Origin: a virus
Taxonomy: Duplodnaviria; Heunggongvirae; Uroviricota; Caudoviricetes
DNA: 64,000 nt
Direction: 5' to 3' (one strand)
Virus record (IMG/VR): IMGVR_UViG_2740892427_000001
Positions 21,418-53,289 of the stretch are shown here, piece after piece. Made by a program: the position numbers and the translations under genes. The notes beneath the pieces were generated by a model. That model worked only from the letters and a program-made list of their open reading frames with translations. It ran no database searches and was not told where the DNA came from. Position 1 is the stretch's first letter; every line of letters starts with the position of its first letter.

Positions 21418-23733
21418 TCAGATTTTGCAGGCTCCGTCGCACTCATCTTCTGGCTCGACGGCTACAGCTTGCGTCAGTGGATTCTGCGGTTCGTCGTCAT
21501 CACGCTTTCCTGCCCCATCTCTGGTGTTGTGGTAGTAAAGCGTTTTAACTCCCATCTTGTAGGCGAGAAGCAAATCTGACAGTAGCGTCATCATTGGGAC
21601 TTTATCGCCTTCAAAGCGAGAAGGGTCATAGTTGGTATTGGCTGAAATAGCCTGGTCAAAGAACTTCTGGATGATCGCCACCTTTGTCAGATAGCCGCGG
21701 TTGTCCGGCATATCCCACAGGTATTCATACTGTTCCTTCAGTTTTTCAAACTCAGGCACGACCATCTTAACGATGCCGTCCTTAGAAGATTTCACCGACA
21801 CCGGGCCACGAGGCGGTTCGATGCCGTTGGTGGAATTAGTGATCTGGCTGGAAGTCTCGCATGGCATTTGTGCCGTCAGTGTGGAGTTGCGAAGGCCGTA
21901 TTTTGCAATACGTTCACGCAGTTCTTCCCACGGCATCTTTAACTCAAAGTTGGTTTCGCCACTTTCGTCTAATGAAGAACGGTAATGGTCGATCGGCAAC
22001 TGACCAATTGCGTACTTGGTCTGCTCAAACCAGTCACACTCACCTTTTGCTTCAGCAAGTCGGCAGCTGGCGTCAAGAAGGTAATACTGGATAGCTTCGA
22101 ACGTTTCATGCACCAGTTTATTGCCAGCGGTATCAGAATAACGAACGCCATTCTTTGCCAGGTAATAAGCAAAGTTGGTTACACCAATTCCCAGGCTACG
22201 ACGAGCTTTGGCAGGCACTTCGGCTGCCTCCATCGGATAGTCTTGATAATCCAGTAACGAATCCAGTGCAGCAACGGCATAGAACGCCACCTCTTTAAGA
22301 GACTCCAGTGAACGGATGGCTCCGAGGTTAAAAGCGGATAAAGTGCATAGCGCGATCTCACCGTTCGGGTCGTCGGTAAATGCCAGTGGACGGGTGGGTA
22401 GAGTGATCTCCATGCACAGGTTTGACTGGCGAACAGGTGCAAGAGCAGGAATGAAAGCGCCATGCTCGTTAATATGATCGACGTTCGCAATATAAATTCG
22501 GCCCGTGGACGCTCGTTCCTGCATCAGAGATGAGAACAGCTCAATGGCAGGTACTGACTTCTTGCGAATTGAATCATCGGCTTCGTATTTATGGTACAGC
22601 TTTTCAAACAGATCCTGGTCTGTGAAGAAGGCTTCGTACATATCAGGCACATCATGCGGGCTGAACAGAGTGATGTTCTCGCTTCTGACGAGTCGACGGT
22701 ACATTAGACGGTTACTCATGACGCCGTAATCAAGATGGCGAACGCGGTTTTCATCAATACCACGGTTATTTTTCACCACCAGCAGACTTTCAACCTCAAG
22801 ATGCCAAATCGGGTAAAACGCTGTTGCTGCGCCACCACGAACACCACCTTGCGAACAAGATTTAACAGCCGTCTGGAAATGCTTCAGGAATGGAATAACT
22901 CCGGTATGGGTGGCTTCACCATTGCGGATCTCGCTGCCCAGCGCACGGATACGGCCAAAACCAATACCAATTCCAGCACGACGTGAAACGTAGTCGATAA
23001 TTGCGGCTGAAGCTGCACTAATCCCTTTCAGACTATCGCCAGACTCAATCAGCACACAACTGGAGAACTGACGGGTTGGAGTACGGACGCCGGCCATGAT
23101 TGGTGTGGGCAGAGACAGTTTGAACGTACTTGTAACGTCATAGAAACCTTTGACCATCTCCATACGTGTTTTGCCAGCGCAGTCGTCTTCCCAATTCTGG
23201 AACAGACACATGCCTACCAGCATATAGATATGTTGCGGCCCCTCATGAATCTCACCAGTAACACGGTTTTGAACGAGGTATTTGCTTTGCAACTGCACCG
23301 TAGCTGCATAGCCAAAAAGATCGTCACGTTTAGGCTTAATGTAATTGCCGAGTTCTTCGATCTCTTCAAATGAATAATGTGTCAGCAAATCCTTGTCATA
23401 AACGCCCTTGTTAACGTTCTTGACAATGTGTTGGTGGAAGTTCGGATAGTCGTAACGACCGAAGGCATCTTTGCGGATTTTAAAAATGTTCAGGCGGGCA
23501 GCCACCTGCGAGTAATTTGGTGCATCTGGTGAGATCAAATCAGCGGCAGATTTAACCAAAGCCTCATGCAACTGGCTGGTGGTAATCCCATCAAAAATGC
23601 TGGCCGCAGCTCCCATTGCTACAGCGGATGCGCTTACACCACGAATGCCTTCTACGCCATACATTACGACGCGGTTGTATTTTTCTTCGGATAACGGCTC
23701 TGTTTGGCCGTTACGTTTTACGATGCTTATCAT
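21418..23733 (-). CDS. nrdA: ribonucleotide reductase class I large subunit
   Basis: 771 aa with N-terminal ATP-cone and C-terminal redox cysteines. Confidence 0.9.
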   Translation of the reverse strand: MISIVKRNGQTEPLSEEKYNRVVMYGVEGIRGVSASAVAMGAAASIFDGITTSQLHEALVKSAADLISPDAPNYSQVAARLNIFKIRKDAFGRYDYPNFHQHIVKNVNKGVYDKDLLTHYSFEEIEELGNYIKPKRDDLFGYAATVQLQSKYLVQNRVTGEIHEGPQHIYMLVGMCLFQNWEDDCAGKTRMEMVKGFYDVTSTFKLSLPTPIMAGVRTPTRQFSSCVLIESGDSLKGISAASAAIIDYVSRRAGIGIGFGRIRALGSEIRNGEATHTGVIPFLKHFQTAVKSCSQGGVRGGAATAFYPIWHLEVESLLVVKNNRGIDENRVRHLDYGVMSNRLMYRRLVRSENITLFSPHDVPDMYEAFFTDQDLFEKLYHKYEADDSIRKKSVPAIELFSSLMQERASTGRIYIANVDHINEHGAFIPALAPVRQSNLCMEITLPTRPLAFTDDPNGEIALCTLSAFNLGAIRSLESLKEVAFYAVAALDSLLDYQDYPMEAAEVPAKARRSLGIGVTNFAYYLAKNGVRYSDTAGNKLVHETFEAIQYYLLDASCRLAEAKGECDWFEQTKYAIGQLPIDHYRSSLDESGETNFELKMPWEELRERIAKYGLRNSTLTAQMPCETSSQITNSTNGIEPPRGPVSVKSSKDGIVKMVVPEFEKLKEQYEYLWDMPDNRGYLTKVAIIQKFFDQAISANTNYDPSRFEGDKVPMMTLLSDLLLAYKMGVKTLYYHNTRDGAGKRDDDEPQNPLTQAVAVEPEDECDGACKI

Positions 23734-35002: not shown

Positions 35003-35203
35003 TTATTTCCCCTTTGCTTTGATTAATGAGTTGATAAACTTACGACCAGCAATAAGACCGATTACAGGAGCACCAAAACCAACGATAACTCCAAACATGA
35101 CGGCTAAATCACTCTTGGTAGAAATCAGCGACGGAACCAGTAAACCGTAGATGAGAGCCACTGAAAGGCCTGTGGTTACTGCCAATAGATAGATTTTGAT
35201 CAT
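35003..35203 (-). CDS. small membrane protein (possible NfeD-like partner of SPFH protein)
   Basis: 66 aa, two TM segments, immediately upstream of SPFH gene. Confidence 0.4.
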   Translation of the reverse strand: MIKIYLLAVTTGLSVALIYGLLVPSLISTKSDLAVMFGVIVGFGAPVIGLIAGRKFINSLIKAKGK

Positions 35204-35295: not shown

Positions 35296-37635
35296 TTACT
35301 CTTCTACTGACTCGGTGGGGTTGTCTTTTGCTCTTCGGTCGTCGATTGCCTGCAAAGCCGCAATGATTTCAGCCAGTGGCTTCTCCCGATACATCTCGAC
35401 GATCTGCGATTTGGTGTATTTCTTGTCACCAATTTCAACTCGCCCGCTGGCGTTCTTTGGCAGGTATCCTTCTTCCAGCATGTACTCGACGAGCGATTCG
35501 ATAACGTCGAGGCCACGAGTAGGATCGAAGTAGAATTTCCAGGTGCATTTGCCATACGGTGGTGCAACTTTGTTTTTGATGCATTCTGCGCCTACGTCCT
35601 GGCCGATCTTCTCTTTACCATCCTTCATCACCGATGCACCAAGACGGATACGTACAGAAGCGTAGAACTTCGGTGAATCGCCGCCTGGTGACGTAGTAGG
35701 GTCGCCAAACATTACACCGATTTTTGTGCGAACCTGATTCAAGAAGATGATGCAGGCGTTGTATTTGCGTGCCCACAAAGCCAGAGTAGGGAAGTTCGCA
35801 CTCGTCGCACGAGCCAGTGCCGTATTGTCGTTCATGTTTAGCTGATCTTTGTCTTTGGCAGTGCCTTCAGCCATCTTTTCGAACTTCTCGGCTTTGGAGT
35901 TCGGAACCATAGACGCAAGAGAGTCAGCCACGATACAGATAGGTGCTGATTCGGGGATAAGCTCTTCATCACGAACCAATTTAAGTATTGTGCCGATCAA
36001 CTCTACAGAGTCTTCGAAGGTATCTGGCTGCTTGTATACCCACTGACCGTCATCCTCATCTGCGTTCAGGCCATTGGCTACAGCCAGGCCAACGTCAAAA
36101 CTGTTTTCATGATCGAGGAATACCGCCAGACCATCTTGTTTTTGAGCGGAGATCATCGCTGCTGTTGCAAGGAATGTGTTGTGGCTGATAATCCCGTTAG
36201 ACCAGAAAGAGTGTGTTTCCGGCATCGCTACGTCGAACGTTGGTGCTTCACCTTCCTCAATAGCCACGACTTCGTCGTAGAACAAGTTAGAGCCAATTAC
36301 CGCTGCCAGTTGTGCAAACAGATGCTCGTTAAAACGATTCTTTCTGCCAATGAAGGAGACATAGATTTCTCGCAGTTTGTCTATTCCGACACGATCGCCG
36401 CGGCCAATAACGTGGTCTACCAGAGCGTAGTCTTCACGGGTGGTCTTGGTGAGCGACTCGTAGAGTGATTTCACTAAGCCGCTGATGTGCGGAACATAGC
36501 CTGAGTAAGTGCGGTCAAAACCAATGTCCCGTTTGGTTGCCACTGATAAACGTGCCGGAGATTCGAAACCAATCGTTGACAGAAAAAGGTCGTAATTAGA
36601 GCCACTGAATGACAGCCGGTAATATGTATTTTCATAACCCGCGACGTGTTTTTCAGAGATAGTTGACGTAATCCCCAGATTCAGGAGCATGAGGCGAATT
36701 TGCTGTAGCAGCAGCCCACTCGCGCTCACAACCTCAATGCAGCGACCATCATTGACGTGGCATTCCAGCTCAAAGTAGCCGCGAAGGAATGCAATTTGAG
36801 CCTCGCTATTGGCGCGACGCACACTCAACGGAACCTGCTTGCCAGCATCTTTCTCATACTCCAGACCATATTCTTTAAAAAGCAGCGAACGCACCTCTTT
36901 GCTAAACAGCACATGGTCTTCCGAGCCGTTATGTTTTCTCGTAACTGGCATCTTGTCTGATACCAGCGAAATGAGGCGGTAGTACTCATCCTTGATGAAA
37001 GGATCTGTGTTAGAAAAATTCACTGAATTTTCAGAGGCCACGTATCCGTCAGCAATTAAATAGCCCATCAGTTTTGCGATATTGGCATCCAGGTGCTGAT
37101 CGCCGAATTGATGTGTGCCAACCATTGAAGGAATCGTGTCGCCTACACTGATTTTTTCAGCATGTCGCCAGACGACATTACCTAAGTCGTCAACCACACG
37201 GATTGGGTGACGGAACGTAGCCTCGATATAACCGCCTGATGCCAGCTTAATACGCTTGAATTTGCGACGGTTGTTCCATGTCAGGTGTGAGGTCTTCTCT
37301 ATCACGCCATTTTCATTGATGAGTCCAACGTTATGCTCTACATCGCGAGTAGTGCATGTCGCTTTGTACCCTTCAATCTCAAACAACTCTTTCACTGTTA
37401 CCATTCCACGCTCCGTCAGCAGCATGGTGTCTGCGGTAACACATTTCCCCGCGCTTGGTGGCCCGAATACTTCGACGATACGACCACATGGGAAGCCGCC
37501 ATCGTAACGACCAGAAATAGCTTTGTTTAACGGTGGAAAGCCTGTATCAATCCAATGAGTTACTTTCTGAATTTCGTCGTTGCTACCGATTTTCTTTTTC
37601 AGAGCAAGTGCCAGTGCGGATTTTCCTTTTGCCAT
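35296..37635 (-). CDS. recA: RecA recombinase containing an in-frame intein
   Basis: Exteins read ...RIVEVFGPPSAGK / TFLATAAM...LNQVRTKIGVMFGDPTTSPGGDSPKFYASVRIRLG (RecA core); 779 aa total versus ~357 aa extein. Confidence 0.85.
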   Translation of the reverse strand: MAKGKSALALALKKKIGSNDEIQKVTHWIDTGFPPLNKAISGRYDGGFPCGRIVEVFGPPSAGKCVTADTMLLTERGMVTVKELFEIEGYKATCTTRDVEHNVGLINENGVIEKTSHLTWNNRRKFKRIKLASGGYIEATFRHPIRVVDDLGNVVWRHAEKISVGDTIPSMVGTHQFGDQHLDANIAKLMGYLIADGYVASENSVNFSNTDPFIKDEYYRLISLVSDKMPVTRKHNGSEDHVLFSKEVRSLLFKEYGLEYEKDAGKQVPLSVRRANSEAQIAFLRGYFELECHVNDGRCIEVVSASGLLLQQIRLMLLNLGITSTISEKHVAGYENTYYRLSFSGSNYDLFLSTIGFESPARLSVATKRDIGFDRTYSGYVPHISGLVKSLYESLTKTTREDYALVDHVIGRGDRVGIDKLREIYVSFIGRKNRFNEHLFAQLAAVIGSNLFYDEVVAIEEGEAPTFDVAMPETHSFWSNGIISHNTFLATAAMISAQKQDGLAVFLDHENSFDVGLAVANGLNADEDDGQWVYKQPDTFEDSVELIGTILKLVRDEELIPESAPICIVADSLASMVPNSKAEKFEKMAEGTAKDKDQLNMNDNTALARATSANFPTLALWARKYNACIIFLNQVRTKIGVMFGDPTTSPGGDSPKFYASVRIRLGASVMKDGKEKIGQDVGAECIKNKVAPPYGKCTWKFYFDPTRGLDVIESLVEYMLEEGYLPKNASGRVEIGDKKYTKSQIVEMYREKPLAEIIAALQAIDDRRAKDNPTESVEE
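36178..37443 (-). mobile_element. intein (422 aa) with LAGLIDADG homing-endonuclease motifs, inserted in the RecA P-loop
   Basis: Begins with Cys directly after GK of Walker A, ends with HN followed by Thr; internal LMGYLIADGYV and LRGYFELECHV blocks. Confidence 0.8.
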
Positions 37636-37637
37636 GA

Positions 37638-37910
37638 TCAGGCTCCTTTTGTTTCGTTGATTCGTTTTAAAGCGGCGGATTCGTCGAATACAATCGCATC
37701 GTGGTTAAGGAGTCTGGATACACGAGCGAGGATTTTTACGACCTGCTCGCTGACTAATCCAAACTCGCGATCTGTCGCTTTCATTCCGGCAGCGCCCAGA
37801 ATTGACGGCAGTGCGATGACAGCGTACTCACCGTGATAAAAGACAATCTCTTTTGCCAGTTGGGTAGGGGTGGTTGTAGCGCCATTAATAATCGATTTAA
37901 GCATTAGCAA
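37638..37910 (-). CDS. small hypothetical protein
   Basis: 90 aa ORF. Confidence 0.4.
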   Translation of the reverse strand: MLMLKSIINGATTTPTQLAKEIVFYHGEYAVIALPSILGAAGMKATDREFGLVSEQVVKILARVSRLLNHDAIVFDESAALKRINETKGA

Positions 37911-38899
37911 TACCTTTCGAATGGAAGAACAAACACTTCAAGGTCTTCAAGGAACGAACGGAAATTCAGCTCGTAGCACAGTTGCTCGAATGCTTTCACG
38001 TCACGATTGCCTTTGATTGTTTCGATTTCGGTAGGCGGAAACTTCGTCTCAATCAGGTTCATTAGCGTGATGTTTCTCTTGAACGCTTCGAGCATTCGAC
38101 AGCCTGTTTTCTCGTTGAAGGCATTCTTCGCTAGTTTGTTGAAGGCGGTCTTATGGCGTCCTTTGTCAACCACGATTGAGCCGTCGTTGATGCCGCGTAC
38201 CATCGTTGCGACACTTCCCCATTCATGCAGCAGCTCTTTCGCACCGCCAGCACCAATGCCACCAACACCGCTAATGTTGTCCGATTTATCGCCTTGTAAT
38301 GCTTTTGCTTCCAAAAATGCGCGAGGCGTGGCGAATCCTGTCAGCTCCGCAAATTGCTCAAAATTAACCTGCTTGTTTTTGGCGTCTTCACGCAGGCTTA
38401 CCCAGCTTACGTTTTCACGAACTAACTGAAGCCAGTCGCTATCGCCTGTTAACAGATAGATGTGTTCAACGGTTGGCTGCGGTGCCATGCGGGATACCAG
38501 CAGCCCGGCCAGATCATCCGCTTCTGCATCTTTTGCAATGAGTTGGGTAACTCCAAGCGCGGTCATCATTTTGAGGATGTATGGCTTCTGGATAGCAAAG
38601 CCTTCCTTCATCTTTTTCATATCAGGATCGTCGTCGCGATTTGCTTTGTAGTCCGGGTAAAAGTCGCGACGCTTGTCACTAAATCCATCCCAAAGAATCA
38701 TAGGTCGGGCATGGAGGATGGAGGCATAACGACGGACGTTCTTAACAAAGCCGAAAGCAGCCTGTACTTCCATTTCGCCGTTGTGCAATTTGTCAGATTG
38801 TTGGTGGTAATAACCCAGGCTATTGCCATCTACGAAGAGATAATTCACCGGTACATTCCTTCCAAAAAGTAAGGCGTCCGTAGAGGCCTTACTGGTCAC
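37904..38899 (-). CDS. 5'-3' exonuclease / flap endonuclease
   Basis: FVDGNSLGY N-terminal block and H3TH-like GDKSDNISGVGGIG. Confidence 0.7.
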   Translation of the reverse strand: MTSKASTDALLFGRNVPVNYLFVDGNSLGYYHQQSDKLHNGEMEVQAAFGFVKNVRRYASILHARPMILWDGFSDKRRDFYPDYKANRDDDPDMKKMKEGFAIQKPYILKMMTALGVTQLIAKDAEADDLAGLLVSRMAPQPTVEHIYLLTGDSDWLQLVRENVSWVSLREDAKNKQVNFEQFAELTGFATPRAFLEAKALQGDKSDNISGVGGIGAGGAKELLHEWGSVATMVRGINDGSIVVDKGRHKTAFNKLAKNAFNEKTGCRMLEAFKRNITLMNLIETKFPPTEIETIKGNRDVKAFEQLCYELNFRSFLEDLEVFVLPFERYC

Positions 38900-38908
38900 G
38901 TAATGGGA

Positions 38909-39937
38909 TTACAGAGAGTCCAGCTCTCTCAGTAGGTCATCCAGACCTTCATCTTCCGTCGCAGATGCGGTTGCTACAGATGTCGCTGCGACTGCTTCAG
39001 ACTCTTTGACTGATACGGCAACGGCAGCGGAACTTGCCTCTGGTTTAAATTCAGTTTCAACGGCACGGAGGATTTCTTCATCAACCAGACTGGTTGGTTC
39101 AGAAGCCGGTGTGTGCGCGGTTGCTACAGCCGTCGCTCCTTCTGTATGACCAGTGACAGAGCCAAATCCAGGTAGTGCCGCAGCCGATGTTTTCGCGGTT
39201 GAGGAAATTGCTGGTGCAGATGCTGCGGCAGTTGGTGCAGCGATGCCAATCAGACGACCCATAGTGCGAACTGTCGACAGAAGACGAGTTTCATCAGCCT
39301 GATTTGCGTATGCGATCAGATCATGCTGGGTGTTCCAGAATTTATCTTCGATATCGCCTTTGTAGACTTTACGCTTAGGCGAGACGTCATATTTGGTATC
39401 GCGACCAGAGCCAGTACGTTTAATCAGGAATGCGTAGCCTTCCTCTTTGCTCAGTGGATTGCCGATATCATCAGCGATGTCTTCGGTGATTGCTTTGCAG
39501 ATATCATCGAATACAGTAGACGGCAGCTCGATTAACTGGCATTTCTCAGCATCTGCGAAATCCTCACGAGCAGAAAGAATGCCGTTGACCAGGTAGCGAG
39601 GAGTGGCACGCATTTGACCGATGCGTTCTTCCATTGCTTTGTTACCCTTGTGACGAGCGCGACCTTCCATCACCATTTCGCATAGCTGACAAGCGCGACC
39701 GTGAGTATGTTGCTCACAAATATAAGCGTTGGTTGCTTCTTTACCTTCCTCGTTCTGATACTTAACGTAGTGCATACCGAAAGTCTGGAAGAACTTACCG
39801 TTTGGGTCGTCTTTATTCGGGAAGATGCGGATATAGTTGACGCCGTCTTTTAAGCGAGTCAGATCAACGTTGTTGCCACGTTTGGCGGCAATGTCTTCAC
39901 GAGTTTTGTTAAGCAAATCAAGTAATGTCTTAGACAT
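38909..39937 (-). CDS. T4 gp32-like single-stranded DNA-binding protein
   Basis: Zn-binding pattern CEQHTHGRACQLCE; Ala/Ser-rich linker; acidic C-terminus DEGLDDLLRELDSL. Confidence 0.6.
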   Translation of the reverse strand: MSKTLLDLLNKTREDIAAKRGNNVDLTRLKDGVNYIRIFPNKDDPNGKFFQTFGMHYVKYQNEEGKEATNAYICEQHTHGRACQLCEMVMEGRARHKGNKAMEERIGQMRATPRYLVNGILSAREDFADAEKCQLIELPSTVFDDICKAITEDIADDIGNPLSKEEGYAFLIKRTGSGRDTKYDVSPKRKVYKGDIEDKFWNTQHDLIAYANQADETRLLSTVRTMGRLIGIAAPTAAASAPAISSTAKTSAAALPGFGSVTGHTEGATAVATAHTPASEPTSLVDEEILRAVETEFKPEASSAAVAVSVKESEAVAATSVATASATEDEGLDDLLRELDSL

Positions 39938-42437: not shown

Positions 42438-45400
42438 TTACTTATTTATTGTCTCCGCGATATCAGCCAGAATGGCCTCCAGTCGCTCTCCTTCTTCCGG
42501 TCGGAAGTACAGGATATTCGGGTTAAATCCGTAGAAGACGGTTGCATCAAGCTCTGGGAAGTACTCCTTACGACCAATCAGATCTGATGGTTTACTCTTA
42601 TTGTTAAATAGTGCGGTTGAACGACTACCACACGTCAAAATGTAGGTTGGTCGTACAAGATTAATTTCTTCCCGCATAAAGTCTGTGAACTGGCCTATCT
42701 CGTCTTTGGTATAGTCTTTCTCTTTGTCCTTAACCTTCTTACAAACACCCGTGACATAAAGATCGCCCATGCGCAGATCTCCAACTGTCAGTAGTTTTGC
42801 CTTAAAGTCGTCGTATCCGTTCTCCATGAAGTAGCCGGTACGAGCGTCATTGCCGTTCGCATTGTCCAGAATGATCATGATTTTGGGTTTAATACCAATA
42901 GTCGGGCGTATCAACTCCTCACCCAAGCCCATTTCAGCCGCCATACGTGTCATGAGTACGTTGATTTCGGCAGAACGCTTAGGATTCATTTCGAACGGAC
43001 GTGATGCTTTAACAGCGTCAATGATGAGATTGCCCATCAGCTCAGCCTGGTCGCGCAGTCGTTCAGGATCAGTTGCTGGCAGACTGCCTGGCTCAATTGA
43101 CGCAAAAGCCCCTACTTTATGAAGCGACTCGCGTACACGACTGTTACATGCACGCTTCTCGACCGCTTCATCGAATTGTGCCACTGACTCGAATTTGCCA
43201 CCAACTTTCTCACGCGCACGCATAATTGCCTGACAACCATTTTCAGAACAGCCTTTCACAGCAGAGAATGGCGCATACAGTGCCTGACTGCCGTCTTCGA
43301 GTGTGCGGATCTCAATTCGGTTAGATGACACATTAACGTCTGGTGGCAATACGCGAATGCCATAGGTCAGCGCATCCTTCACCAGCCCCTGATGCTTATC
43401 CTCGCCCAGAATGGTGAGCGCAGCTGCGAAGAACTCAGCAGGGTAGTGCGTCTTTAGCCACATAGACTGATAACTGATTAAAGAATAAGCAACACTGTGT
43501 GATTTGTTGAAGGCATATCCACCGAACTTCTCAAAGGCGTCCCATATTTCTTGGGCTTTTTCCTTACTGAGACCTTCTTGTTCAGAGACGATCTCCACGT
43601 AGTCTATGCCGTCACTAATAGCCTCGCTGTAGCTTCTACGCTTACCGTCTGAGCAATCCAGTTTTGCGTGTTTGTGAACCTCTACAGTACCTCCATTTTT
43701 GAGTGACAGTGTCACCCAGCCTGCTTGTGCTCGTTCTACAAAATCGCTGCCGATCGCTTTCATCTTATCCATGTTCTTTTTACCGATAGCGGAACGCAGA
43801 GCGTCTGCTTCGGCCATAGAGAACCCGGCAAGTACTCGGGAACTTTGCATGATTTGTTCCTGATAGAGCAAAACACCATTAGTCTCCCGGGTGACTTCCT
43901 CAAGACGCGGATGAATTGAATGTGGAGCCATGAAGCCTTTGGCCACGGAGACATAGTCGTCCAACATGCCGGATTGGATCGGGCCTGGTCGGAAGAGTGC
44001 GGTCGTGGCGACAACGGTCTTGAAGCTCATTGGCTCGATGCCACCGCCCAGATCTTTAAGCAACTTACGCATGGGGCCGGACTCCAGCTGGAATACGCCC
44101 TGCGTGTACCCTGCAGCGAACCCATCCAGAACCTTGCGATCGTCCAGTGGGATAGCGTCGAGATTGATGTCTTCCCCGGTACTCTCTTTGATGTAGCGTT
44201 TCGCGCTATCCAGAAGATCGAGCGTTGCCAGGCCAAGCACGTCCAGCTTAATTAGGCCCATAGCCTCGCAGTAACGCTTGTCAAATGCGATACAACGCGC
44301 GTCACCACGGCGCTCAACCGGTGTACGTTCTGTCAGAGGAACACCTGCTACGATCATCCCTGCCGCATGTCTACCAAAGCCACGCATAAGGCTTTGTAAC
44401 TTGCAGGCTGCATTGAATGCATCAGGATATTTTGTTGCGTATTTGTCGAGACTTGCCAGTTGTTCGCGCAGCTCTTCCAATGGAAGGCTATCATCCTCGA
44501 CGTTCTTCAGTTCTTTTGATACCGCCATATCTGCGGACTCCACACCATAAATACGAGCGGTGTCACGTAGTGCAGATGCCGCGCCCAGATAGGTGAAGTT
44601 CGGAATGCCTGCAACGTAATCTTCGCCGTAGCGTTCATTCAGATACTCGATCACCTCATGGCGACGTGCCTGGCTGAAGTCCAAGTCCGCATCCGGCAAG
44701 TCGAGACGCTCAGGGTTGATGAAACGCTCAAACAGAAGACCGTGACGGATTGGGTCGACGTTGGTTATGCCTATGCACCACGCCACCAGAGAACCGGCAG
44801 AGGAACCACGACCAGGCCCGACAGGAATGCCAGTTTCACGGCTGTGATTCATCAGATCGCGTACCATCAGGAAGTAACCACAGAATCCCAGGCGAGTCAG
44901 CGTGTCCATTTCGTACTTTAGCCGCTCAACATAAACCCTGTTCTCAGAAGCAGGTGGTGTGTATCCAAACTCTTTTGTGGTAAGACGTTTACGCAGCCCT
45001 GCAACAGCCAGTTTCATCAGCGTTGCAGGTTCGTCGTCTGCCATCTTGGGCAGTGCTGGTGGCAATTCATGCCAGCGCCATGTGCAGGCATCGATAATGG
45101 AGTCCTGCGTTGTTGAGGCCATTGCAGCTGTTACCGGCACATCCATGCGAACGGAGAAGGCTTTAAGCGCCTCAAGGAGATGGCGACGACCATTGATGGC
45201 GTTATCTCGCTGGTGGGGGATACGCAGACGATGCGGCTGGTCGATTTTTATGTTGTTCGTAACCATGTGCGCAATGTCTTTAATGTCTGCATCGTCGATC
45301 GATTCGTAATAAGCGGGATAGAACGCCACTGGCTCTATTTTCAATGCGCTGGCTACTTTCATCGCTCGGACGTTAATCTGGTCGTAGAATGGGGTAGGGT

Positions 45401-45944
45401 GCGGATAAACCACGCTATAGAAGTTGTCTTTCCCGCCCGCTGTAATCAGTGAGCTTATGATTTTTGCAAAATCGTTGCGTTGGAACACGCTACCGATGTC
45501 GGAAGTGAGCAGGATGATGTTGCCTTTGGCATATGTAGAAACCAACTGTTCGAGCGAGAGACGCGGTACAAAGTAGAACTGTTCTCGTGTGTTGGCCACC
45601 GTCATTAGTTCGCAGATGTCGCGATATCCTTTCTCATTTTTAATTAGAGCGGTAAACGAGTAGTTACGTCCTCGCTCCAATGATTCCATACATCCCTTAG
45701 ACTCTTTAGCAAGTTTAGCCCGGTGCTCGTATGTGGGATCATCAACGATGTTTAGTTTCACACCACAAATAACCGCCATGTCGTCACCAGCGGCACGTTG
45801 TAGTGGAATAACGCTCGCAATATTCATGCTATCTGCTGAAATTACAGCGGTGTAGCCAGCTTCTCTGGCAATCTTCACCGCGTTTTCTGCTTTTAGAGCC
45901 GACTCCCCAAGTGAGAAGTCAGTTCGAACCATCAGTGCTTTCAT
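42438..45944 (-). CDS. dnaE: DNA polymerase III alpha subunit-like replicative polymerase
   Basis: 1168 aa; N-terminal PHP-like domain; PDADLDF catalytic aspartate block parallels DnaE PDIDIDF. Confidence 0.8.
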   Translation of the reverse strand: MKALMVRTDFSLGESALKAENAVKIAREAGYTAVISADSMNIASVIPLQRAAGDDMAVICGVKLNIVDDPTYEHRAKLAKESKGCMESLERGRNYSFTALIKNEKGYRDICELMTVANTREQFYFVPRLSLEQLVSTYAKGNIILLTSDIGSVFQRNDFAKIISSLITAGGKDNFYSVVYPHPTPFYDQINVRAMKVASALKIEPVAFYPAYYESIDDADIKDIAHMVTNNIKIDQPHRLRIPHQRDNAINGRRHLLEALKAFSVRMDVPVTAAMASTTQDSIIDACTWRWHELPPALPKMADDEPATLMKLAVAGLRKRLTTKEFGYTPPASENRVYVERLKYEMDTLTRLGFCGYFLMVRDLMNHSRETGIPVGPGRGSSAGSLVAWCIGITNVDPIRHGLLFERFINPERLDLPDADLDFSQARRHEVIEYLNERYGEDYVAGIPNFTYLGAASALRDTARIYGVESADMAVSKELKNVEDDSLPLEELREQLASLDKYATKYPDAFNAACKLQSLMRGFGRHAAGMIVAGVPLTERTPVERRGDARCIAFDKRYCEAMGLIKLDVLGLATLDLLDSAKRYIKESTGEDINLDAIPLDDRKVLDGFAAGYTQGVFQLESGPMRKLLKDLGGGIEPMSFKTVVATTALFRPGPIQSGMLDDYVSVAKGFMAPHSIHPRLEEVTRETNGVLLYQEQIMQSSRVLAGFSMAEADALRSAIGKKNMDKMKAIGSDFVERAQAGWVTLSLKNGGTVEVHKHAKLDCSDGKRRSYSEAISDGIDYVEIVSEQEGLSKEKAQEIWDAFEKFGGYAFNKSHSVAYSLISYQSMWLKTHYPAEFFAAALTILGEDKHQGLVKDALTYGIRVLPPDVNVSSNRIEIRTLEDGSQALYAPFSAVKGCSENGCQAIMRAREKVGGKFESVAQFDEAVEKRACNSRVRESLHKVGAFASIEPGSLPATDPERLRDQAELMGNLIIDAVKASRPFEMNPKRSAEINVLMTRMAAEMGLGEELIRPTIGIKPKIMIILDNANGNDARTGYFMENGYDDFKAKLLTVGDLRMGDLYVTGVCKKVKDKEKDYTKDEIGQFTDFMREEINLVRPTYILTCGSRSTALFNNKSKPSDLIGRKEYFPELDATVFYGFNPNILYFRPEEGERLEAILADIAETINK

Positions 45945-46128
45945 GTGTTTTTACCTTTATGGTTTTTTTGATTTTGTCATTGGGGAAGCCTACGAACTTC
46001 CCATACATCGAAATCGCAACTTCTTTTGCTGATTGGTGACAATCGGTCTTGTCTGGACATACCAGACAAGCCTTACCAGTTTCAGAAGCAGCGATAAGAG
46101 AGCCGAAACATCCTTTACGCACGATCAA
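45919..46128 (-). CDS. small Cys-rich protein
   Basis: 69 aa, CLVCPDKTDCH. Confidence 0.35.
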   Translation of the reverse strand: MIVRKGCFGSLIAASETGKACLVCPDKTDCHQSAKEVAISMYGKFVGFPNDKIKKTIKVKTHESTDGSN

Positions 46129-47360
46129 CCAAATATTTTTTGAACAACTTCACGAGCCGCTTGTGCAGAAGCTGAAGGGAGTTTGTTAATGAAAGAACGC
46201 TCAATACCTGTCACAAAGTCGCCTCGCATCATTCCAATCTTGGCCGACAACAAAAGTTCACGAGGGCCAATTGGCTGACTGATAAGGTGTTCTTCGTATC
46301 CATCGCGAACGATACCGGCAAACTTAACCATCTTTTCTGCGTATTCATCCACGATACCGGCATTTATCAACATGTTGATCTCTGCCTCTTTGCTCATGTA
46401 TTTCACATTCGAAACGATGCCAAAACGCGAAAAGTTCGCGGCGTTCTGGATGTTTGTACCCTGGTACAAGCCGGTTTCATCACCAGATCCGTTCGTGTTG
46501 CCAGTGCCAATGAAAGCAAACCGTTCATGCGGAGTAATGCGACGCCATTCTGGAGTCGCCTCTTTGATGACCAACGCTTCACCTTCCAGCACTGGCTGAT
46601 ACACGCCAAGAATCTGTGGAAACGCAAAGTCGTATTCATCCGCGAGGTAAACCCAGCCATGCTTCATTGCGAGCGCAAGCAAGCCAGGCTCGAAATACGT
46701 AGAGCCATCACGCGCCAGAATTTGCCCCGTAACATGTGCCTCTTCCATTGATGCTGTATGTTGGGCACGGATCAACGGACGATTGAGCAAAGCACATAGT
46801 TGTGTAGGCAATGACGATTTGCCTGTTCCTGCATGACCCCACAAATAGCCAGGTATGCCAAGTTCAAGCATCATGAAAATGTCTTTGATCAGTTCGAAGT
46901 CGCCATATACGTAGCCCTTCTTCACTTCTGGAACGAACTCTGGAAACGGCGTATTGACGTTGACGCTAACCATGAGCGGCGTCCCACGTTTTGTTCCGAG
47001 TTCTTTCACCGTTACATTTAGCAGTTCGTGAGCTGCGACCAGATCTGTCTTGTACTCAACTGTGCCTGTGTAGCCTGGGCTACTGGTCACGCCAGATGAT
47101 TTGGCCATTTCGCTTTTTTGCTCGGCACGTTTAGCTTGAATTGCATCAAGTGCCTTTTTCGATAGCGTTGGCTCATCTGGAAACTGTGTTGTGTACATTT
47201 TCAGTACGGTGTCAGGATCGGCATCTTTTACTGACTCAGGAATGCCCTCGCAATTACCATTGGCTACATGGGACTTAAAATAGTGAAATGATTTTCCGCA
47301 CCACTTGCAAACAAGGTAATCAGAAGGATTTTTTTCATTTTGCAGTGCAGTAGTAGTCAT
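46125..47360 (-). CDS. CobS-like AAA+ (MoxR-family) ATPase
   Basis: Walker A GHAGTGKS; pairs with downstream vWA protein. Confidence 0.6.
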   Translation of the reverse strand: MTTTALQNEKNPSDYLVCKWCGKSFHYFKSHVANGNCEGIPESVKDADPDTVLKMYTTQFPDEPTLSKKALDAIQAKRAEQKSEMAKSSGVTSSPGYTGTVEYKTDLVAAHELLNVTVKELGTKRGTPLMVSVNVNTPFPEFVPEVKKGYVYGDFELIKDIFMMLELGIPGYLWGHAGTGKSSLPTQLCALLNRPLIRAQHTASMEEAHVTGQILARDGSTYFEPGLLALAMKHGWVYLADEYDFAFPQILGVYQPVLEGEALVIKEATPEWRRITPHERFAFIGTGNTNGSGDETGLYQGTNIQNAANFSRFGIVSNVKYMSKEAEINMLINAGIVDEYAEKMVKFAGIVRDGYEEHLISQPIGPRELLLSAKIGMMRGDFVTGIERSFINKLPSASAQAAREVVQKIFG

Positions 47361-47455: not shown

Positions 47456-49564
47456 TCACTTTAAAATGATACGAGATAGTTCAGTAACTACAGATGAACC
47501 AAGACTATCAACGCTCGTTACCAGGGCATGATTTGAGTAAAATCTCTCCGGTGCGTCAGTCATGATGCCAATTGCCATCAAATCAATGTCAGTCTGCGTT
47601 TCAATTTGCTTCGCAACCGAACGCAAATGAGCGTCAAAACCTCTCCCAACAGCCCACGGCTCGCCATCGCTCAGAACAAGCATGATCTTCCTGTCCTCCA
47701 TGCGACCGGAAAATAACGATGCAAGGCTGGCTATGCTTTCACCATCCACGTTATTAAGAAGTGGGAATGTGTAGCCTACGCACCCCATACGTGAGCGAAC
47801 TTCGCGAGAATTTACCTTTTCATTCCAATTTTTGATGATAGGTAGCATTAAAGATTCAAAGCGAGAGAACTCATACTTGACAGCCTTAAGTTCTCCTGCC
47901 GCCATATGACTACCAAATGTAGTGAAGCCGGTGATAATGTTGGGAACATTTATTCGATCAAGGGCATCGGCGATGGTATATGCACTTGCAAGAGCCAATT
48001 GTATCGTTATACCCCTCATTGAACCTGATAAATCAATCACTTGTTGAACACAGGCGTTAACGGCTTTAGATTCTTCTTTTTTACGAAACACGCGATCATC
48101 ATTCATTGCTAATCTGTAGATACTAGAACCATGAATGCGCCCCCGACGCTGGCCCGGTATAAACTGAACTCTGTTTCTGCTTGCTATTGCTCGCTCCAGG
48201 TCTTTTGCCAGCGTCGACGAAACACCTGACGAAAGATGCTTTTCAATATATTTGTCGAAGAGCTGGTTGCCTTCAGGAACGATGCGATAGCGGCTGATTG
48301 GACATCCTCCTAAATCAATATCGGAGAATGTTTTAATAAGCCGTTTGATATGGGCTTCTGCCTGATCAATCGAGCCGATGAAGTCGTATGAGCGATTGTA
48401 TGGCCTGTATTCGCTTTTCGAGCTTTCTGTTAACTCGCTTTTAATCGTTTCGGATAGAGCATCTTCTGTCATGCCTCCGACTTCATCTTCTATGCTATCC
48501 AGCTCCTCTAAAGCCTCTTCCAGACTCATTTTTGACGGAGTTGGGATATCTGAAGAGCCGTCTTCTGTCGTTTTTCTTTTTTCGTGGTCAGCGGTTAATG
48601 ATTCTGACGCCGCGTTATCAGAAGCATCAGAATCTGATACCTCTTTATCATTTTCTGTATCATCGAATATTGTTTCTGATGATTCAGAATTATCTGAATC
48701 ATCACTGTTGTTATTATCATGTTTGTGCTTACTATGTGATTCTGATTTGATAGATTTGTGATTATCTAACAATGAAGGTGTCTCATGATCTTCGTTGTCT
48801 TCATTGTTTTCTCCAGAGGCATCCGTCTGGTCAGCGTCAGAAGGATCGGAAGTTTTTCCCGGAGCTGACTCCTTACCTTTGCTTTCACTTTCAGTGTCTT
48901 TGAGGATCTTAGCTATGGTCGCAGCCACCTTTACACAATCCTCGGTGCAAGACATGTTACGCACGGCCACATCGATACCATGTTCTTTTAATAATGAAAT
49001 TGGTTTCTCAATGACAGGCCAGTATTCATCCATGAAATCTACGAACGGTGCTTGGCCATCCCAGGCTCTTACAACCGGACAGAGAAAGAAGTTTAGAAAA
49101 AGCGCGCGCTGATCTTTGCCACAATAAGCAATAGCCTCTGAAGCCTTTGGTTTAAAGACTTTTTCGATTATAAGGCGCTGAGTTGCCATCAGATTACGTC
49201 TTGTTCCGTTAAAGACCTGACCCATTTTTCGCTCGATGAACACGTCTTCTAAGGCATTCCATAGCGACCAGGAAGGAACGCGTCCTTTTTCTCTCATTTT
49301 GTTGGACACACGAATATCGGTAAACAAAATGTGAGCAACCTCATGATCGAGAAATCCGCGCACAGCATTCATCAATGCCGGTGTTGCGTTATCCGGGATT
49401 GATGGGATGTTTACGAGAATTGGCTCTCCATCATCGTTATAGCGTACATAAGCGTCGTCCCCTCGTTCTGCAACAGGGATGTTTTTACCTGAAAGGAGAG
49501 CGACTACTCGTTTTACACTGTCACGGAAGTCCTGAACCTCTTTGATGGAACGTTTTTTAGACAT
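47456..49564 (-). CDS. CobT-like protein with C-terminal von Willebrand A domain and long acidic low-complexity linker
   Basis: vWA-like blocks DLSGSM ... MLVLSDGEP; ~150-aa D/S/E/N-rich region. Confidence 0.55.
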   Translation of the reverse strand: MSKKRSIKEVQDFRDSVKRVVALLSGKNIPVAERGDDAYVRYNDDGEPILVNIPSIPDNATPALMNAVRGFLDHEVAHILFTDIRVSNKMREKGRVPSWSLWNALEDVFIERKMGQVFNGTRRNLMATQRLIIEKVFKPKASEAIAYCGKDQRALFLNFFLCPVVRAWDGQAPFVDFMDEYWPVIEKPISLLKEHGIDVAVRNMSCTEDCVKVAATIAKILKDTESESKGKESAPGKTSDPSDADQTDASGENNEDNEDHETPSLLDNHKSIKSESHSKHKHDNNNSDDSDNSESSETIFDDTENDKEVSDSDASDNAASESLTADHEKRKTTEDGSSDIPTPSKMSLEEALEELDSIEDEVGGMTEDALSETIKSELTESSKSEYRPYNRSYDFIGSIDQAEAHIKRLIKTFSDIDLGGCPISRYRIVPEGNQLFDKYIEKHLSSGVSSTLAKDLERAIASRNRVQFIPGQRRGRIHGSSIYRLAMNDDRVFRKKEESKAVNACVQQVIDLSGSMRGITIQLALASAYTIADALDRINVPNIITGFTTFGSHMAAGELKAVKYEFSRFESLMLPIIKNWNEKVNSREVRSRMGCVGYTFPLLNNVDGESIASLASLFSGRMEDRKIMLVLSDGEPWAVGRGFDAHLRSVAKQIETQTDIDLMAIGIMTDAPERFYSNHALVTSVDSLGSSVVTELSRIILK

Positions 49565-52635: not shown

Positions 52636-52722
52636 TGGCGGAGAGTAATGGAATCGAACCATCATCGCTTGCGCAATGGGACGGTTTTCAAGACCGCTTG
52701 AGCACCATGCTCCCTACTCTCC
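52636..52722 (-). tRNA. tRNA-Ser (anticodon TGA), long variable arm
   Basis: Cloverleaf folded by hand: acceptor GGAGAGT/ACTCTCC, anticodon loop CTTGAAA, T-loop GGTTCGATTCC, 87 nt. Confidence 0.7.
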
Positions 52723-52822
52723 AGCTATTGTGATGGTCGGTGCTGAACTCCGACACAGGGTTGTAGCAAGCCCCGCAAAGCGCGCACTACTGTAGTTGCG
52801 GCACATCAGCCTGTGCATTCAT

Positions 52823-52901
52823 CACAACGGTAAGATCACTACCTTTCGACCAGTCATTGTGCACATGAACGACGATTAACCGTAATGATCTTATCGTTGT
52901 G
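52823..52901 (-). repeat. hairpin-bounded module H2 (terminal inverted repeat CACAACGGTAAGATCA)
   Basis: 79 nt, 16-bp stems with one G-U position. Confidence 0.4.
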
Positions 52902-52952
52902 TTGTGAAGCCAGATGCTTATCTTCTGGTTGCTTCAAAGAGCTGCACTTCCT

Positions 52953-53041
52953 CACAACGGTAAGAGCACTGGTCTGACTCTATCGATTTACGGGCTTGTG
53001 GGTCAGTATCGCCGATTCGCCCAATGCTCTTACCTGTTGTG
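52953..53041 (-). repeat. hairpin-bounded module H3 (terminal inverted repeat CACAACGGTAAGAGCA), abuts tRNA-Thr
   Basis: 89 nt, 16-bp stems with one bulge. Confidence 0.4.
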
Positions 53042-53042
53042 T

Positions 53043-53118
53043 TGGTGCCGGTTAACGGGATCGAACCGCTGACATCCTGCTTACAAGGCAGACGCTCTAC
53101 CAACTGAGCTAAACCGGC
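53043..53118 (-). tRNA. tRNA-Thr (anticodon TGT)
   Basis: Acceptor GCCGGTT/AACCGGC, anticodon loop CTTGTAA, T-loop GGTTCGATCC, 76 nt. Confidence 0.8.
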
Positions 53119-53122
53119 AATT

Positions 53123-53209
53123 TGGTGGGGAGTGATGGAGTCGAACCACCCGAGTCGCAATGACAGTAGATTTACAGTCTACCCCGCTGCCCCTACGGAC
53201 TAACTCCCC
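53123..53209 (-). tRNA. tRNA-Tyr (anticodon GTA), long variable arm
   Basis: Acceptor GGGGAGT/ACTCCCC, anticodon loop CTGTAAA, T-loop GGTTCGACTCC, 87 nt. Confidence 0.75.
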
Positions 53210-53214
53210 TAAAT

Positions 53215-53289
53215 TGGCGATGGTGGGTGGATTCGAACCACCGACCAGTTGGTTAACAGCCAACTGCTCTACCGCTGAGCTACACCATC
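53215..53289 (-). tRNA. tRNA-Asn (anticodon GTT)
   Basis: Acceptor GATGGTG/CACCATC, anticodon loop CTGTTAA, T-loop GGTTCGAATCC, 75 nt. Confidence 0.8.

What the first reader, a model, noticed from the sequence alone, without database searches (positions are those of the whole stretch)
35296..37635. RecA gene split by a LAGLIDADG intein inserted in the Walker A P-loop
The 779-aa ORF is a bacterial-type RecA whose Walker A motif GPPSAGK is followed by Cys and 422 aa of non-RecA sequence ending in His-Asn, then Thr and the rest of RecA. Removing residues 65-486 (nt 36178..37443) restores the canonical GKT P-loop and a ~357-aa RecA. The insert carries two LAGLIDADG-like blocks, so the homing endonuclease may be intact. 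Recombinase activity in this element would then depend on protein splicing.
Basis: partly seen in the sequence, partly recalled or inferred. Interest (0 to 1): 0.65.

Follow-up and report, generated by a model that had tools for sequence, protein, structure and literature searches.

The report
Known RecA P-loop intein, phage-plasmid copy

Summary
ORF 35296..37635 (-) encodes a 779-aa RecA-family precursor. Residues 65-486 (nt 36178..37443) are a 422-aa class-1 intein with a LAGLIDADG homing endonuclease, inserted between Lys and Thr of the Walker A motif GPPSAGK|T. All splicing residues are present. Removing the insert gives a 357-aa protein 100% identical to natural intein-less alleles.

The window is an SSU5-like phage-plasmid of E. 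coli. The intein is polymorphic: 248 of 736 matching plasmids carry it, as do 114 of the 250 complete E. coli genomes that have this gene. It is about 97% (up to 100%) identical between lineages whose recA and neighbouring genes are only 73-85% identical. It always carries the same short flank signature, GCGGGGAAA|ACATTCCT. Its endonuclease domain is under purifying selection. Together these indicate recent homing.

It is not new. Topilina et al. [quoted passage not shown] NCBI already names some copies "intein-containing recombinase RecA".

What this analysis adds is the phage-plasmid context and the population footprint of homing. Splicing and DNA cleavage are inferred, not shown.

The parts
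35296..37635 (-). recA precursor gene, 779 aa (86.6 kDa): N-extein + intein + C-extein in one uninterrupted frame
   Evidence: The exact protein is in NCBI as WP_064237046.1 / OAO44749.1.
37643..37648 (-). Shine-Dalgarno-like AAGGAG, 7 nt upstream of the ATG
   Evidence: sequence only
37444..37635 (-). N-extein, aa 1-64, ending in Walker A GPPSAGK (aa 58-64, nt 37444-37464)
36178..37443 (-). Intein, 422 aa (47.6 kDa), precursor aa 65-486; published allele RecA-c2
   Evidence: Pfam PF14890 and PF14528. NCBIfam intein_Nterm TIGR01445 at 35.5 bits against a cut-off of 24.5. AF2 model with pLDDT 80.5 and pTM 0.85. Best structural matches are the endonuclease-containing inteins Tli VMA 7qss (E 1.7e-19, TM 0.69), PI-PfuI, PI-PkoII and PI-SceI. 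Topilina 2015 Table 1 gives 'c2 (65-486)'.
37108..37443 (-). N-terminal splicing (Hint) lobe, intein aa 1-112: block A Cys1 (CVTADT, 37426-37443) and block B T76-F-R-H79 (37204-37218). The boundary at aa 112 is approximate.
   Evidence: dN/dS 0.03-0.08
36289..37107 (-). LAGLIDADG homing-endonuclease domain plus helical linker, intein aa 113-385. The boundaries are approximate.
   Evidence: PF14528 in two stretches. phmmer alignment to the endonuclease domains of Tli VMA and PI-PkoII. Foldseek matches to I-DmoI. dN/dS 0.13-0.22.
37039..37074 (-). LAGLIDADG motif 1, KLMGYLIADGYV (intein 124-135); putative catalytic Asp132
36754..36792 (-). LAGLIDADG motif 2, AFLRGYFELECHV (intein 218-230); putative catalytic Glu227, followed by Cys instead of the usual Gly
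36178..36288 (-). C-terminal splicing lobe, intein aa 386-422: block F PTFDVAMPETHSFWSNG (36193-36243) and block G IISHN (36178-36192)
   Evidence: There were no substitutions in this lobe between the window and the Klebsiella, Enterobacter and GS04 copies.
35296..36177 (-). C-extein, aa 487-779 plus stop. It starts with Thr+1 (ACA), which completes GKT. A Walker B-like ICIVADS lies at spliced aa 144.
37444..37452 (-). Upstream half of the flank signature shared by all intein-bearing alleles (GCGGGGAAA)
   Evidence: 29 of 29 IMG/VR intein-plus alleles, plus all PLSDB and phage copies examined
36170..36177 (-). Downstream half of the flank signature (ACATTCCT)
   Evidence: every intein-plus allele with a readable C-junction. 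None of the 78 empty sites has both halves.

Best explanation
This is a canonical class-1 intein carrying a LAGLIDADG homing endonuclease, namely the published RecA-c2 allele. It sits in the P-loop of the RecA-like recombinase of an SSU5-type phage-plasmid.

Inferred mechanism: the gene is translated as an 86.6-kDa precursor whose ATP-binding loop is split. The intein then excises itself by the standard four steps. Cys1 undergoes an N-S acyl shift. The N-extein is transferred to the hydroxyl of Thr+1. Asn422 cyclises, assisted by His421. An O-N shift then forms the Lys64-Thr peptide bond. The products are a 39-kDa RecA with GPPSAGKT restored and a free 47.6-kDa endonuclease.

When an intein-bearing and an intein-less phage-plasmid share a cell, the endonuclease cuts the empty recA at the P-loop coding sequence. 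Double-strand-break repair then copies in the intein together with about 7-24 nt of upstream flank and about 8-12 nt of downstream flank.

Shown here: the anatomy, the catalytic residues, the fold, exact empty-site alleles, presence/absence polymorphism within each host-gene clade, an intein far younger than its host genes, a shared junction signature, and purifying selection on the exteins, the splicing lobes and the endonuclease domain.

Inferred only: that splicing and DNA cleavage actually occur.
For: Anatomy and residues.

Fold.

Exact empty allele with identical extein protein.

Polymorphism: 248 of 736 PLSDB plasmids; 114 of the 250 complete E. coli genomes that carry the gene, all on plasmids; 8/29, 8/20 and 4/18 intein-plus within three extein clades.

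Horizontal movement: the intein is 96.8-97.0% identical to the Klebsiella, Enterobacter and GS04 copies, whose exteins are 79-85% and neighbouring genes 73-83% identical. Intein dS is 0.09 against extein dS of 1.3-2.2. Intein-plus pairs with 75-85% extein identity have a median intein identity of 97% and a maximum of 100%, and one intein cluster spans three extein clades.

Junction signature. No empty site has the fused signature.

Selection: endonuclease-domain dN/dS is 0.13-0.22. All 21 complete and 13 partial IMG/VR inteins are free of stop codons. Within-clade extein pN/pS is 0.007 for intein-plus and 0.010 for intein-less alleles, and 7 of 8 intein-plus and 17 of 21 intein-less alleles encode the same extein protein.

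Prior description. RefSeq name 'intein-containing recombinase RecA'.
Against: There is no experimental evidence here for splicing or cleavage. The second LAGLIDADG motif ends in E-C rather than the usual D/E-G, and one distant relative (P0004) has Gly at the acidic position, so endonuclease activity is not guaranteed. Ordinary homologous recombination between co-resident phage-plasmids could also move the intein, although it would not be expected to give such short and uniform flank tracts. The population counts come from redundant, clinically biased collections. The junction survey only sees alleles that match my degenerate pattern.
Confidence: 0.88

Rival explanations
1. The intein splices, but its endonuclease is no longer active. 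Its spread between lineages would then be due to general homologous recombination among co-resident phage-plasmids, not homing.
For: The second motif is non-canonical, ELEC instead of xDG. Distant c2-site relatives with degenerate or missing endonuclease domains exist: P0007, P0011 and P0013 lack PF14528. About half to two-thirds of alleles remain empty, which a highly active endonuclease might have filled.
Against: Endonuclease-domain dN/dS is 0.13-0.22 and there is no stop or frameshift in 34 copies. The high-identity tract stops within 7-24 nt upstream and 8-12 nt downstream of the intein in every lineage, which is tighter than expected for random crossovers. No empty site carries the intein-plus flank signature.
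Confidence: 0.1
2. The intein has been co-opted as a conditional switch. Splicing, and hence phage-plasmid recombinase activity, would be held back or released by redox state, temperature or DNA damage, as proposed for the Pho RadA, Mtu RecA and Msm DnaB inteins. This is compatible with the best explanation rather than exclusive of it.
For: It occupies the same P-loop position as the Pho RadA intein, where extein-intein interactions gate splicing. The intein has Cys30, Cys228 and Cys235 in addition to Cys1, which could allow disulfide trapping. The P-loop bias has been argued to be adaptive.
Against: Nothing in the sequence data indicates regulation. Intein-less alleles are the majority and encode the identical RecA, so the intein is dispensable. 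Topilina et al. report that Pho-RadA-like extein-intein packing is sterically infeasible for the E. coli RecA precursor.
Confidence: 0.1
3. The insert is dead: splicing does not occur, and intein-bearing recA copies are non-functional pseudogenes carried along by the plasmid.
For: Thr+1 is a weaker nucleophile than Cys or Ser (general knowledge of intein chemistry). Two copies have been hit by insertion sequences, one in E. albertii and one in CP059946.1, so the gene is not indispensable.
Against: All splicing residues are intact. The splicing lobes have dN/dS of 0.03-0.08. Intein-plus exteins are as constrained as intein-less ones, pN/pS 0.007 against 0.010, and none has a stop codon. The K|T P-loop site is the 'classic' position of functional inteins.
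Confidence: 0.02

Closest known systems
RecA-c2 intein of E. coli, Enterobacter and Salmonella (Topilina, Novikova, Stanger, Banavali & Belfort 2015, NAR 43:6631, PMC4513877, Table 1)
   Same: Same host protein, same hosts and the same coordinates, 'c2 (65-486)'. [quoted passage not shown] For practical purposes this is the same element.
   Different: The paper treats it as 'bacterial RecA' and does not mention plasmids, phages or homing; its text has no hits for 'plasmid-encoded' or 'prophage'. Here the gene is on an SSU5-type phage-plasmid: 0 of 252 places in complete E. coli genomes are chromosomal. I could not retrieve the listed UniProt entries to confirm identity residue by residue.
Pyrococcus horikoshii RadA intein (insertion point c1)
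   Same: Same position at the end of the recombinase P-loop. The Hint fold matches 4e2t.
   Different: It is a mini-intein without an endonuclease. Topilina et al. report little similarity between the RadA (c1) and RecA (c2) inteins and infer independent invasion. It is a thermophile intein with extein-gated conditional splicing.
Mycobacterium tuberculosis RecA intein (PI-MtuI, insertion point a, aa 252-691)
   Same: A LAGLIDADG-containing class-1 intein in RecA, so recombinase maturation needs splicing.
   Different: It uses a different insertion site, at the monomer-monomer interface rather than the P-loop, and sits in a chromosomal recA. The splicing domain gives only a weak structural match (3ifj, E 7e-4).
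Endonuclease-containing archaeal and yeast inteins: Tli/Pho VMA, PI-PfuI, PI-PkoII, PI-SceI
   Same: Same two-domain architecture, a Hint lobe split by a LAGLIDADG endonuclease. These are the best whole-chain structural matches, TM 0.6-0.69, and the best sequence matches in the PDB.
   Different: Only 10-21% identity, and different host proteins and insertion sites.
Mycobacteriophage TerL1-a P-loop inteins (Kelley et al. 2016, PMC5050341)
   Same: A phage-borne intein between the invariant Lys and the nucleophilic Thr of a Walker A motif, which the paper calls the 'classic' P-loop insertion.
   Different: The host protein is terminase, the phages infect actinobacteria, and there is no close sequence relationship. 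The only terminase hit is weak: phrog_17415 at 3e-9 over the N-terminal splicing lobe.

Membership tests
Class 1 intein (Hint superfamily) | Cys or Ser as first residue (block A) | tested here: met
   Cys65 of the precursor is intein Cys1, in CVTADT. It is conserved in all copies and in the distant relatives.
Class 1 intein (Hint superfamily) | Block B TxxH | tested here: met
   T76-F-R-H79
Class 1 intein (Hint superfamily) | Blocks F and G, with penultimate His and terminal Asn | tested here: met
   PTFDVAMPETHSFWSNG followed by IISHN; D404, H421, N422
Class 1 intein (Hint superfamily) | Cys, Ser or Thr nucleophile as first C-extein residue | tested here: met
   Thr487
Class 1 intein (Hint superfamily) | In-frame insertion whose removal restores a contiguous conserved host protein; intein-less alleles exist | tested here: met
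   The spliced sequence equals the natural 357-aa allele, 0 amino-acid differences. There are many empty alleles.
Class 1 intein (Hint superfamily) | Hint fold | tested here: met
   AF2 model with pLDDT 80.5. Foldseek matches full inteins and many mini-inteins at probability 1.00. PF14890 scores 44.3 bits against a cut-off of 35.8.
Class 1 intein (Hint superfamily) | Autocatalytic protein splicing | not testable with these tools
   Needs expression and Western blot or mass spectrometry. The indirect support is purifying selection on intein-plus exteins.
LAGLIDADG homing endonuclease (intein-borne, monomeric two-motif type) | Two LAGLIDADG motifs in one chain | tested here: met
   PF14528 at 63.4 bits against a cut-off of 22.5, in two stretches. 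The motifs are at intein 124-135 and 218-230.
LAGLIDADG homing endonuclease (intein-borne, monomeric two-motif type) | Acidic catalytic residue at the end of each motif | tested here: met
   D132 aligns with the Asp of Tli VMA and the Glu of PI-PkoII. E227 aligns with the Asp of both (numbering). The residue after E227 is Cys rather than Gly.
LAGLIDADG homing endonuclease (intein-borne, monomeric two-motif type) | Endonuclease-domain fold | tested here: met
   Foldseek matches to I-DmoI structures (target-normalised TM 0.53-0.62) and to the endonuclease domains of PI-PfuI and PI-PkoII
LAGLIDADG homing endonuclease (intein-borne, monomeric two-motif type) | Site-specific cleavage of the intein-less allele | not testable with these tools
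   Needs an in vitro cleavage assay
LAGLIDADG homing endonuclease (intein-borne, monomeric two-motif type) | Population signature of homing: sporadic distribution, element younger than host gene, co-converted flanks | tested here: met
RecA-c2 intein allele (Topilina et al. 2015) | Insertion between Lys and Thr of the RecA Walker A, residues 65-486, in enterobacterial RecA-like proteins | tested here: met
   Identical coordinates and host genera. Distant relatives P0005-P0007, P0009, P0011 and P0013 show the same GK|C and/or SHN|TT junctions.
Bacterial RecA (NCBIfam TIGR02012 equivalog) | Score at or above the equivalog cut-off (325.3 bits) | tested here: not met
   The spliced extein scores 153.7 bits. 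It is therefore a RecA-family protein, not an equivalog of cellular RecA.
RecA family (Pfam PF00154) | Score at or above the gathering threshold; Walker A and Walker B present after splicing | tested here: met
   125.5 bits against a cut-off of 27. GPPSAGKT is restored. ICIVADS is at spliced aa 144. PHROG 97 'UvsX-like recombinase' scores 1.4e-83.

The most novel reading that the evidence does not exclude
The intein is in the middle of an ongoing sweep through SSU5-family phage-plasmids of Enterobacteriaceae. It is present in three host-gene clades that are 15-25% diverged, with some intein copies 99.8-100% identical across clades. On this reading, every remaining empty recA allele survives because it carries synonymous changes in the endonuclease target: none of the 78 IMG/VR empties and none of the PLSDB empties in the 72-nt junction search has the GCGGGGAAA|ACATTCCT flanks, and the closest differs only at the wobble base of Thr+1. 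That would be a natural, datable arms race between a homing endonuclease and target-site immunity, in a clinically tracked plasmid family carried by about 5% of complete E. coli genomes.
Probability: 0.25. Interest if true: 0.4.

Novelty: already known. Interest (0 to 1): 0.17.

Why it matters
As a discovery it matters little. The intein, its site and even its residue numbers were published in 2015, and NCBI's pipeline already names it. It does have some practical value.

1. Most RefSeq copies are labelled only "LAGLIDADG family homing endonuclease" or "hint domain-containing protein". That hides the fact that these phage-plasmids encode a complete RecA-like recombinase next to genes for a gp32-like SSB, a 5'-3' exonuclease and a UvsY-like protein.

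2. None of the phage-plasmid papers that mention SSU5, pHCM2, pKpn or P1-like elements contains the word intein. Yet the intein is a sharp presence/absence marker and a tracer of co-residence and recombination between SSU5-type elements from different genera.

3. With intein-plus and intein-less alleles that are otherwise identical in protein, this is a convenient natural E. coli system for studying homing, co-conversion tract length and target-site immunity.

Tried and rejected
1. Group I intron or free-standing homing-endonuclease gene: rejected. The frame is continuous, there are no stops, all the intein blocks are present, and the endonuclease is embedded between the two Hint lobes.

2. 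Bacterial intein-like (BIL) or other Hint domain without ligation: rejected, because of His-Asn plus Thr+1 and the exact empty allele.

3. Assembly or fusion artefact: rejected. The same 2340-nt gene occurs in 237 PLSDB plasmids and 114 complete E. coli genomes.

4. Search for a 'naive' empty site with intein-plus flanks: a 30-nt megablast in PLSDB found nothing. That search had no positive control of its own. The 72-nt blastn served as the control and gave a best empty match of 97.2%. A 20-nt exact scan of IMG/VR found nothing.

5. I first thought the upstream synonymous differences marked all empty alleles. L009 showed an empty allele with an upstream flank identical to the intein-plus flank, its only junction-proximal difference being at +3. 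IMG/VR then showed that ACA at +3 does occur in a few empties, but those have other differences. So no single base separates the two classes, only the full signature.

6. Literature searches for intein with SSU5 or phage-plasmid terms found nothing relevant. The supplementary tables of Novikova 2016 are not held.

7. Cross-clade extein dN/dS is weak evidence for function after intein arrival, because most of that divergence predates the intein. I replaced it with the within-clade comparison.

Full report
The window has a single 779-aa ORF at 35296..37635 on the minus strand, with an AAGGAG ribosome-binding site 7 nt upstream. The Walker A sequence GPPSAGK occupies aa 58-64. Cys65 follows, His485-Asn486 close the insert, and Thr487 resumes RecA. 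Pfam finds RecA (3.3e-36), two LAGLIDADG_3 stretches (2.4e-17) and the intein splicing domain (2.1e-11, spanning aa 73-486), all above their curated cut-offs. Calculated masses are 86.6 kDa for the precursor, 39.0 kDa for spliced RecA and 47.6 kDa for the intein.

**2. Where it sits.** The window is an SSU5-like phage-plasmid of E. coli. The gene is 98.3-98.5% identical to Escherichia phages PhiR41_1 and Cyrano and 99.7% identical to its best plasmid match. In complete E. coli genomes it is found only on plasmids: 252 places, none chromosomal. Its neighbours are a 5'-3' exonuclease (37904-38899), a T4 gp32-like SSB (38909-39937) and a gene annotated in Cyrano as a UvsY mediator, so it belongs to a phage-type recombination module. 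The spliced extein scores 154 bits on NCBIfam RecA against an equivalog cut-off of 325. It is therefore a diverged RecA-family protein, which PHROGs groups under 'UvsX-like recombinase'. Other classic intein hosts in the window are uninterrupted: Pol III alpha, the RNR large subunit, a DnaB-like helicase and an SbcC-like protein.

**3. The insert is a complete bifunctional intein.**
- Splicing residues: block A Cys1, block B T76xxH79, block F with D404, block G H421-N422, then Thr+1.
- Endonuclease motifs: LAGLIDADG motifs at intein 124-135 (KLMGYLIADGYV) and 218-230 (AFLRGYFELECHV). D132 and E227 align with the catalytic acidic residues of the Tli VMA intein and PI-PkoII. The residue after E227 is Cys instead of the usual Gly.
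- Fold: an AlphaFold2 model (pLDDT 80.5, pTM 0.85, from a shallow 10-sequence alignment) matches endonuclease-containing inteins best. These are Tli VMA 7qss (E 1.7e-19, TM 0.69), PI-PfuI, PI-PkoII and PI-SceI. I-DmoI matches the endonuclease domain, and mini-inteins including Pho RadA match the Hint lobes.

**4. Empty alleles exist at exactly this site.** Escherichia phage CMS-2020a (CP053388.1) has a 1074-nt recA whose protein is 100% identical to the in-silico spliced product. All 15 nucleotide differences are synonymous, and five of them lie within 20 nt of the insertion point. SSU5 itself and Klebsiella phage vB_Kpn_1825-KPC53 are also empty.

**5. Distribution.**
- PLSDB: 736 plasmids match the gene and 248 match the intein (Escherichia 123, Klebsiella 71, Enterobacter 41, Citrobacter 6, and others).
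- Complete E. coli genomes: 250 of 5,426 carry the gene, and 114 of those include the intein.
- Combined set: among 84 full alleles from the window, fetched records and IMG/VR contigs, the three main extein clades are each polymorphic, at 8/29, 8/20 and 4/18 intein-plus.
- These collections are redundant and biased, so the fractions are only indicative.

**6. Evidence that the intein moves by homing.**

(a) The intein is much younger than its host genes. Against the Klebsiella, Enterobacter and E. coli GS04 copies it is 96.8-97.0% identical, while the N-extein is 79-84%, the C-extein 82-85%, the exonuclease 79-83% and the SSB 78-80% identical. Intein dS is 0.09 against extein dS of 1.3-2.2. 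Across all intein-plus pairs whose exteins are 75-85% identical, intein identity has a median of 97% and reaches 100%. One intein cluster is shared by three extein clades.

(b) The high-identity tract ends almost at the splice junctions. Every intein-plus allele carries GCGGGGAAA|intein|ACATTCCT. This holds for 29 of 29 N-junctions and all readable C-junctions in IMG/VR, plus all fetched records, and it appears on at least three different upstream backgrounds. One intein-plus haplotype differs from its empty sibling only at -7 and +3. The Klebsiella intein-plus and intein-less alleles are identical over 75 nt on each side except at -7, -4 and +3.

(c) None of the 78 IMG/VR empty sites has the full signature, and none of the PLSDB empties in the 72-nt junction search matches the fused flanks. 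The closest (L009) differs near the junction only at the wobble base of the Thr+1 codon. This fits either co-conversion of short donor flanks or survival of cleavage-resistant empty sites. The data do not separate the two.

(d) The endonuclease domain is under purifying selection (dN/dS 0.13-0.22) and the splicing lobes more strongly so (0.03-0.08). None of the 21 complete and 13 partial IMG/VR inteins has a stop codon.

**7. Evidence that intein-bearing recA still works, so splicing occurs.** Within the E. coli-type clade, extein pN/pS is 0.007 among intein-plus alleles and 0.010 among intein-less alleles. Seven of 8 intein-plus and 17 of 21 intein-less alleles encode the same extein protein, and no extein has a stop codon. 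This is indirect. A P-loop split by 422 residues cannot bind ATP (established knowledge of Walker A function), so the maintained constraint implies that splicing restores the protein.

**8. It is already known.** Topilina et al. 2015 (NAR 43:6631, PMC4513877) mined RadA and RecA inteins. Their Table 1 lists eight E. coli strains, Enterobacter cloacae BWH 29, Enterobacter sp. MGH 26 and Salmonella enterica 557928 with an intein at 'c2 (65-486)', the same residues as here. [quoted passage not shown]

Kelley et al. 2016 call the Lys|Thr position the 'classic' P-loop intein insertion. Novikova et al. 2016 count 56 RecA inteins, including some in Proteobacteria. RefSeq names some copies 'intein-containing recombinase RecA' and most others 'LAGLIDADG family homing endonuclease'. 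The exact protein is WP_064237046.1, in a 90% cluster of 1,496 sequences, and PHROGs has a 779-position profile of it.

More distant relatives of this intein (28-44% identity) also sit at GK|C...SHN|TT in other RecAs. They include a canonical RecA on a 550-kb contig whose endonuclease domain has decayed. The c2 allele is therefore a wider family.

**9. What is not in the literature I could search.** Topilina et al. do not mention a plasmid or phage location. None of the phage-plasmid papers returned contains the word intein. The phage-plasmid context and the homing footprint described in sections 5-6 are therefore modest additions. They do not amount to a new kind of element.

**10. Verdict.** The feature is a textbook intein of a published allele. 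Interest is low. The only mildly novel reading is an ongoing sweep with target-site immunity among SSU5-type phage-plasmids, which would need cleavage assays to establish.

Noticed in passing
L006:5577-6738 (Escherichia albertii plasmid CP043243.1): In this copy the recA C-extein is interrupted by a ~1.16-kb IS3-family element (two transposase ORFs), so the gene is dead. Its intein is a third variant, 93.9% identical to the window's, while the flanking genes are 95-99% identical. That is the reverse of the usual discordance, and the intein is still free of stops (dN/dS 0.09).
   Followed up: partly
L117:732-1502 (E. coli plasmid CP059946.1): An IS1 element (InsA/InsB reading frames) is inserted inside the intein after intein nt 431, with an 8-nt target duplication. 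It truncates the precursor at aa 214.
   Followed up: partly
window 35003-35203 (-): The small membrane-protein gene just downstream of recA is only 79% identical to that of phage Cyrano, while the genes on either side are 96-99% identical. This is a local mosaic replacement.
   Followed up: no
window 52636-53289 (-): A cluster of four tRNA genes: Ser(tga), Thr(tgt), Tyr(gta) and Asn(gtt). The tRNA-Thr(UGU) reads ACA, which happens to be the Thr+1 codon carried by all intein-bearing alleles. This is probably a coincidence.
   Followed up: no
window 46125-47360 and 47456-49564 (-): A MoxR-like AAA_5 ATPase lies next to a CobT-like protein with a VWA domain, immediately beside the Pol III alpha gene (42438-45944). 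Its role in the phage-plasmid is unclear.
   Followed up: no
P0007, P0011, P0013: These are distant c2-site RecA inteins (27-37% identity) in other RecA proteins with no LAGLIDADG Pfam hit, so the endonuclease domain has decayed or shrunk. P0007 sits in a canonical-looking RecA (GPESSGK|C...SHN|TTLTLQ) on a 550-kb contig. The c2 allele is therefore not confined to phage-plasmids.
   Followed up: partly
L113 (IMG/VR contig 3300028993_000030): An intein variant 6 nt (2 aa) shorter than the usual 1266 nt, still in frame and ending in HN|T.
   Followed up: no
P0016: One exact-cluster member is recorded on a 2.72-Mb contig, whereas none of the 252 places in complete E. coli genomes is chromosomal. 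This could be an integrated phage-plasmid or a misassembly.
   Followed up: no
window 21418-23733, 42438-45944, 58871-60211 (-): The RNR large subunit, Pol III alpha and DnaB-like helicase genes are among the commonest intein hosts in bacteria, yet none carries an intein in this element. Only recA does.
   Followed up: yes
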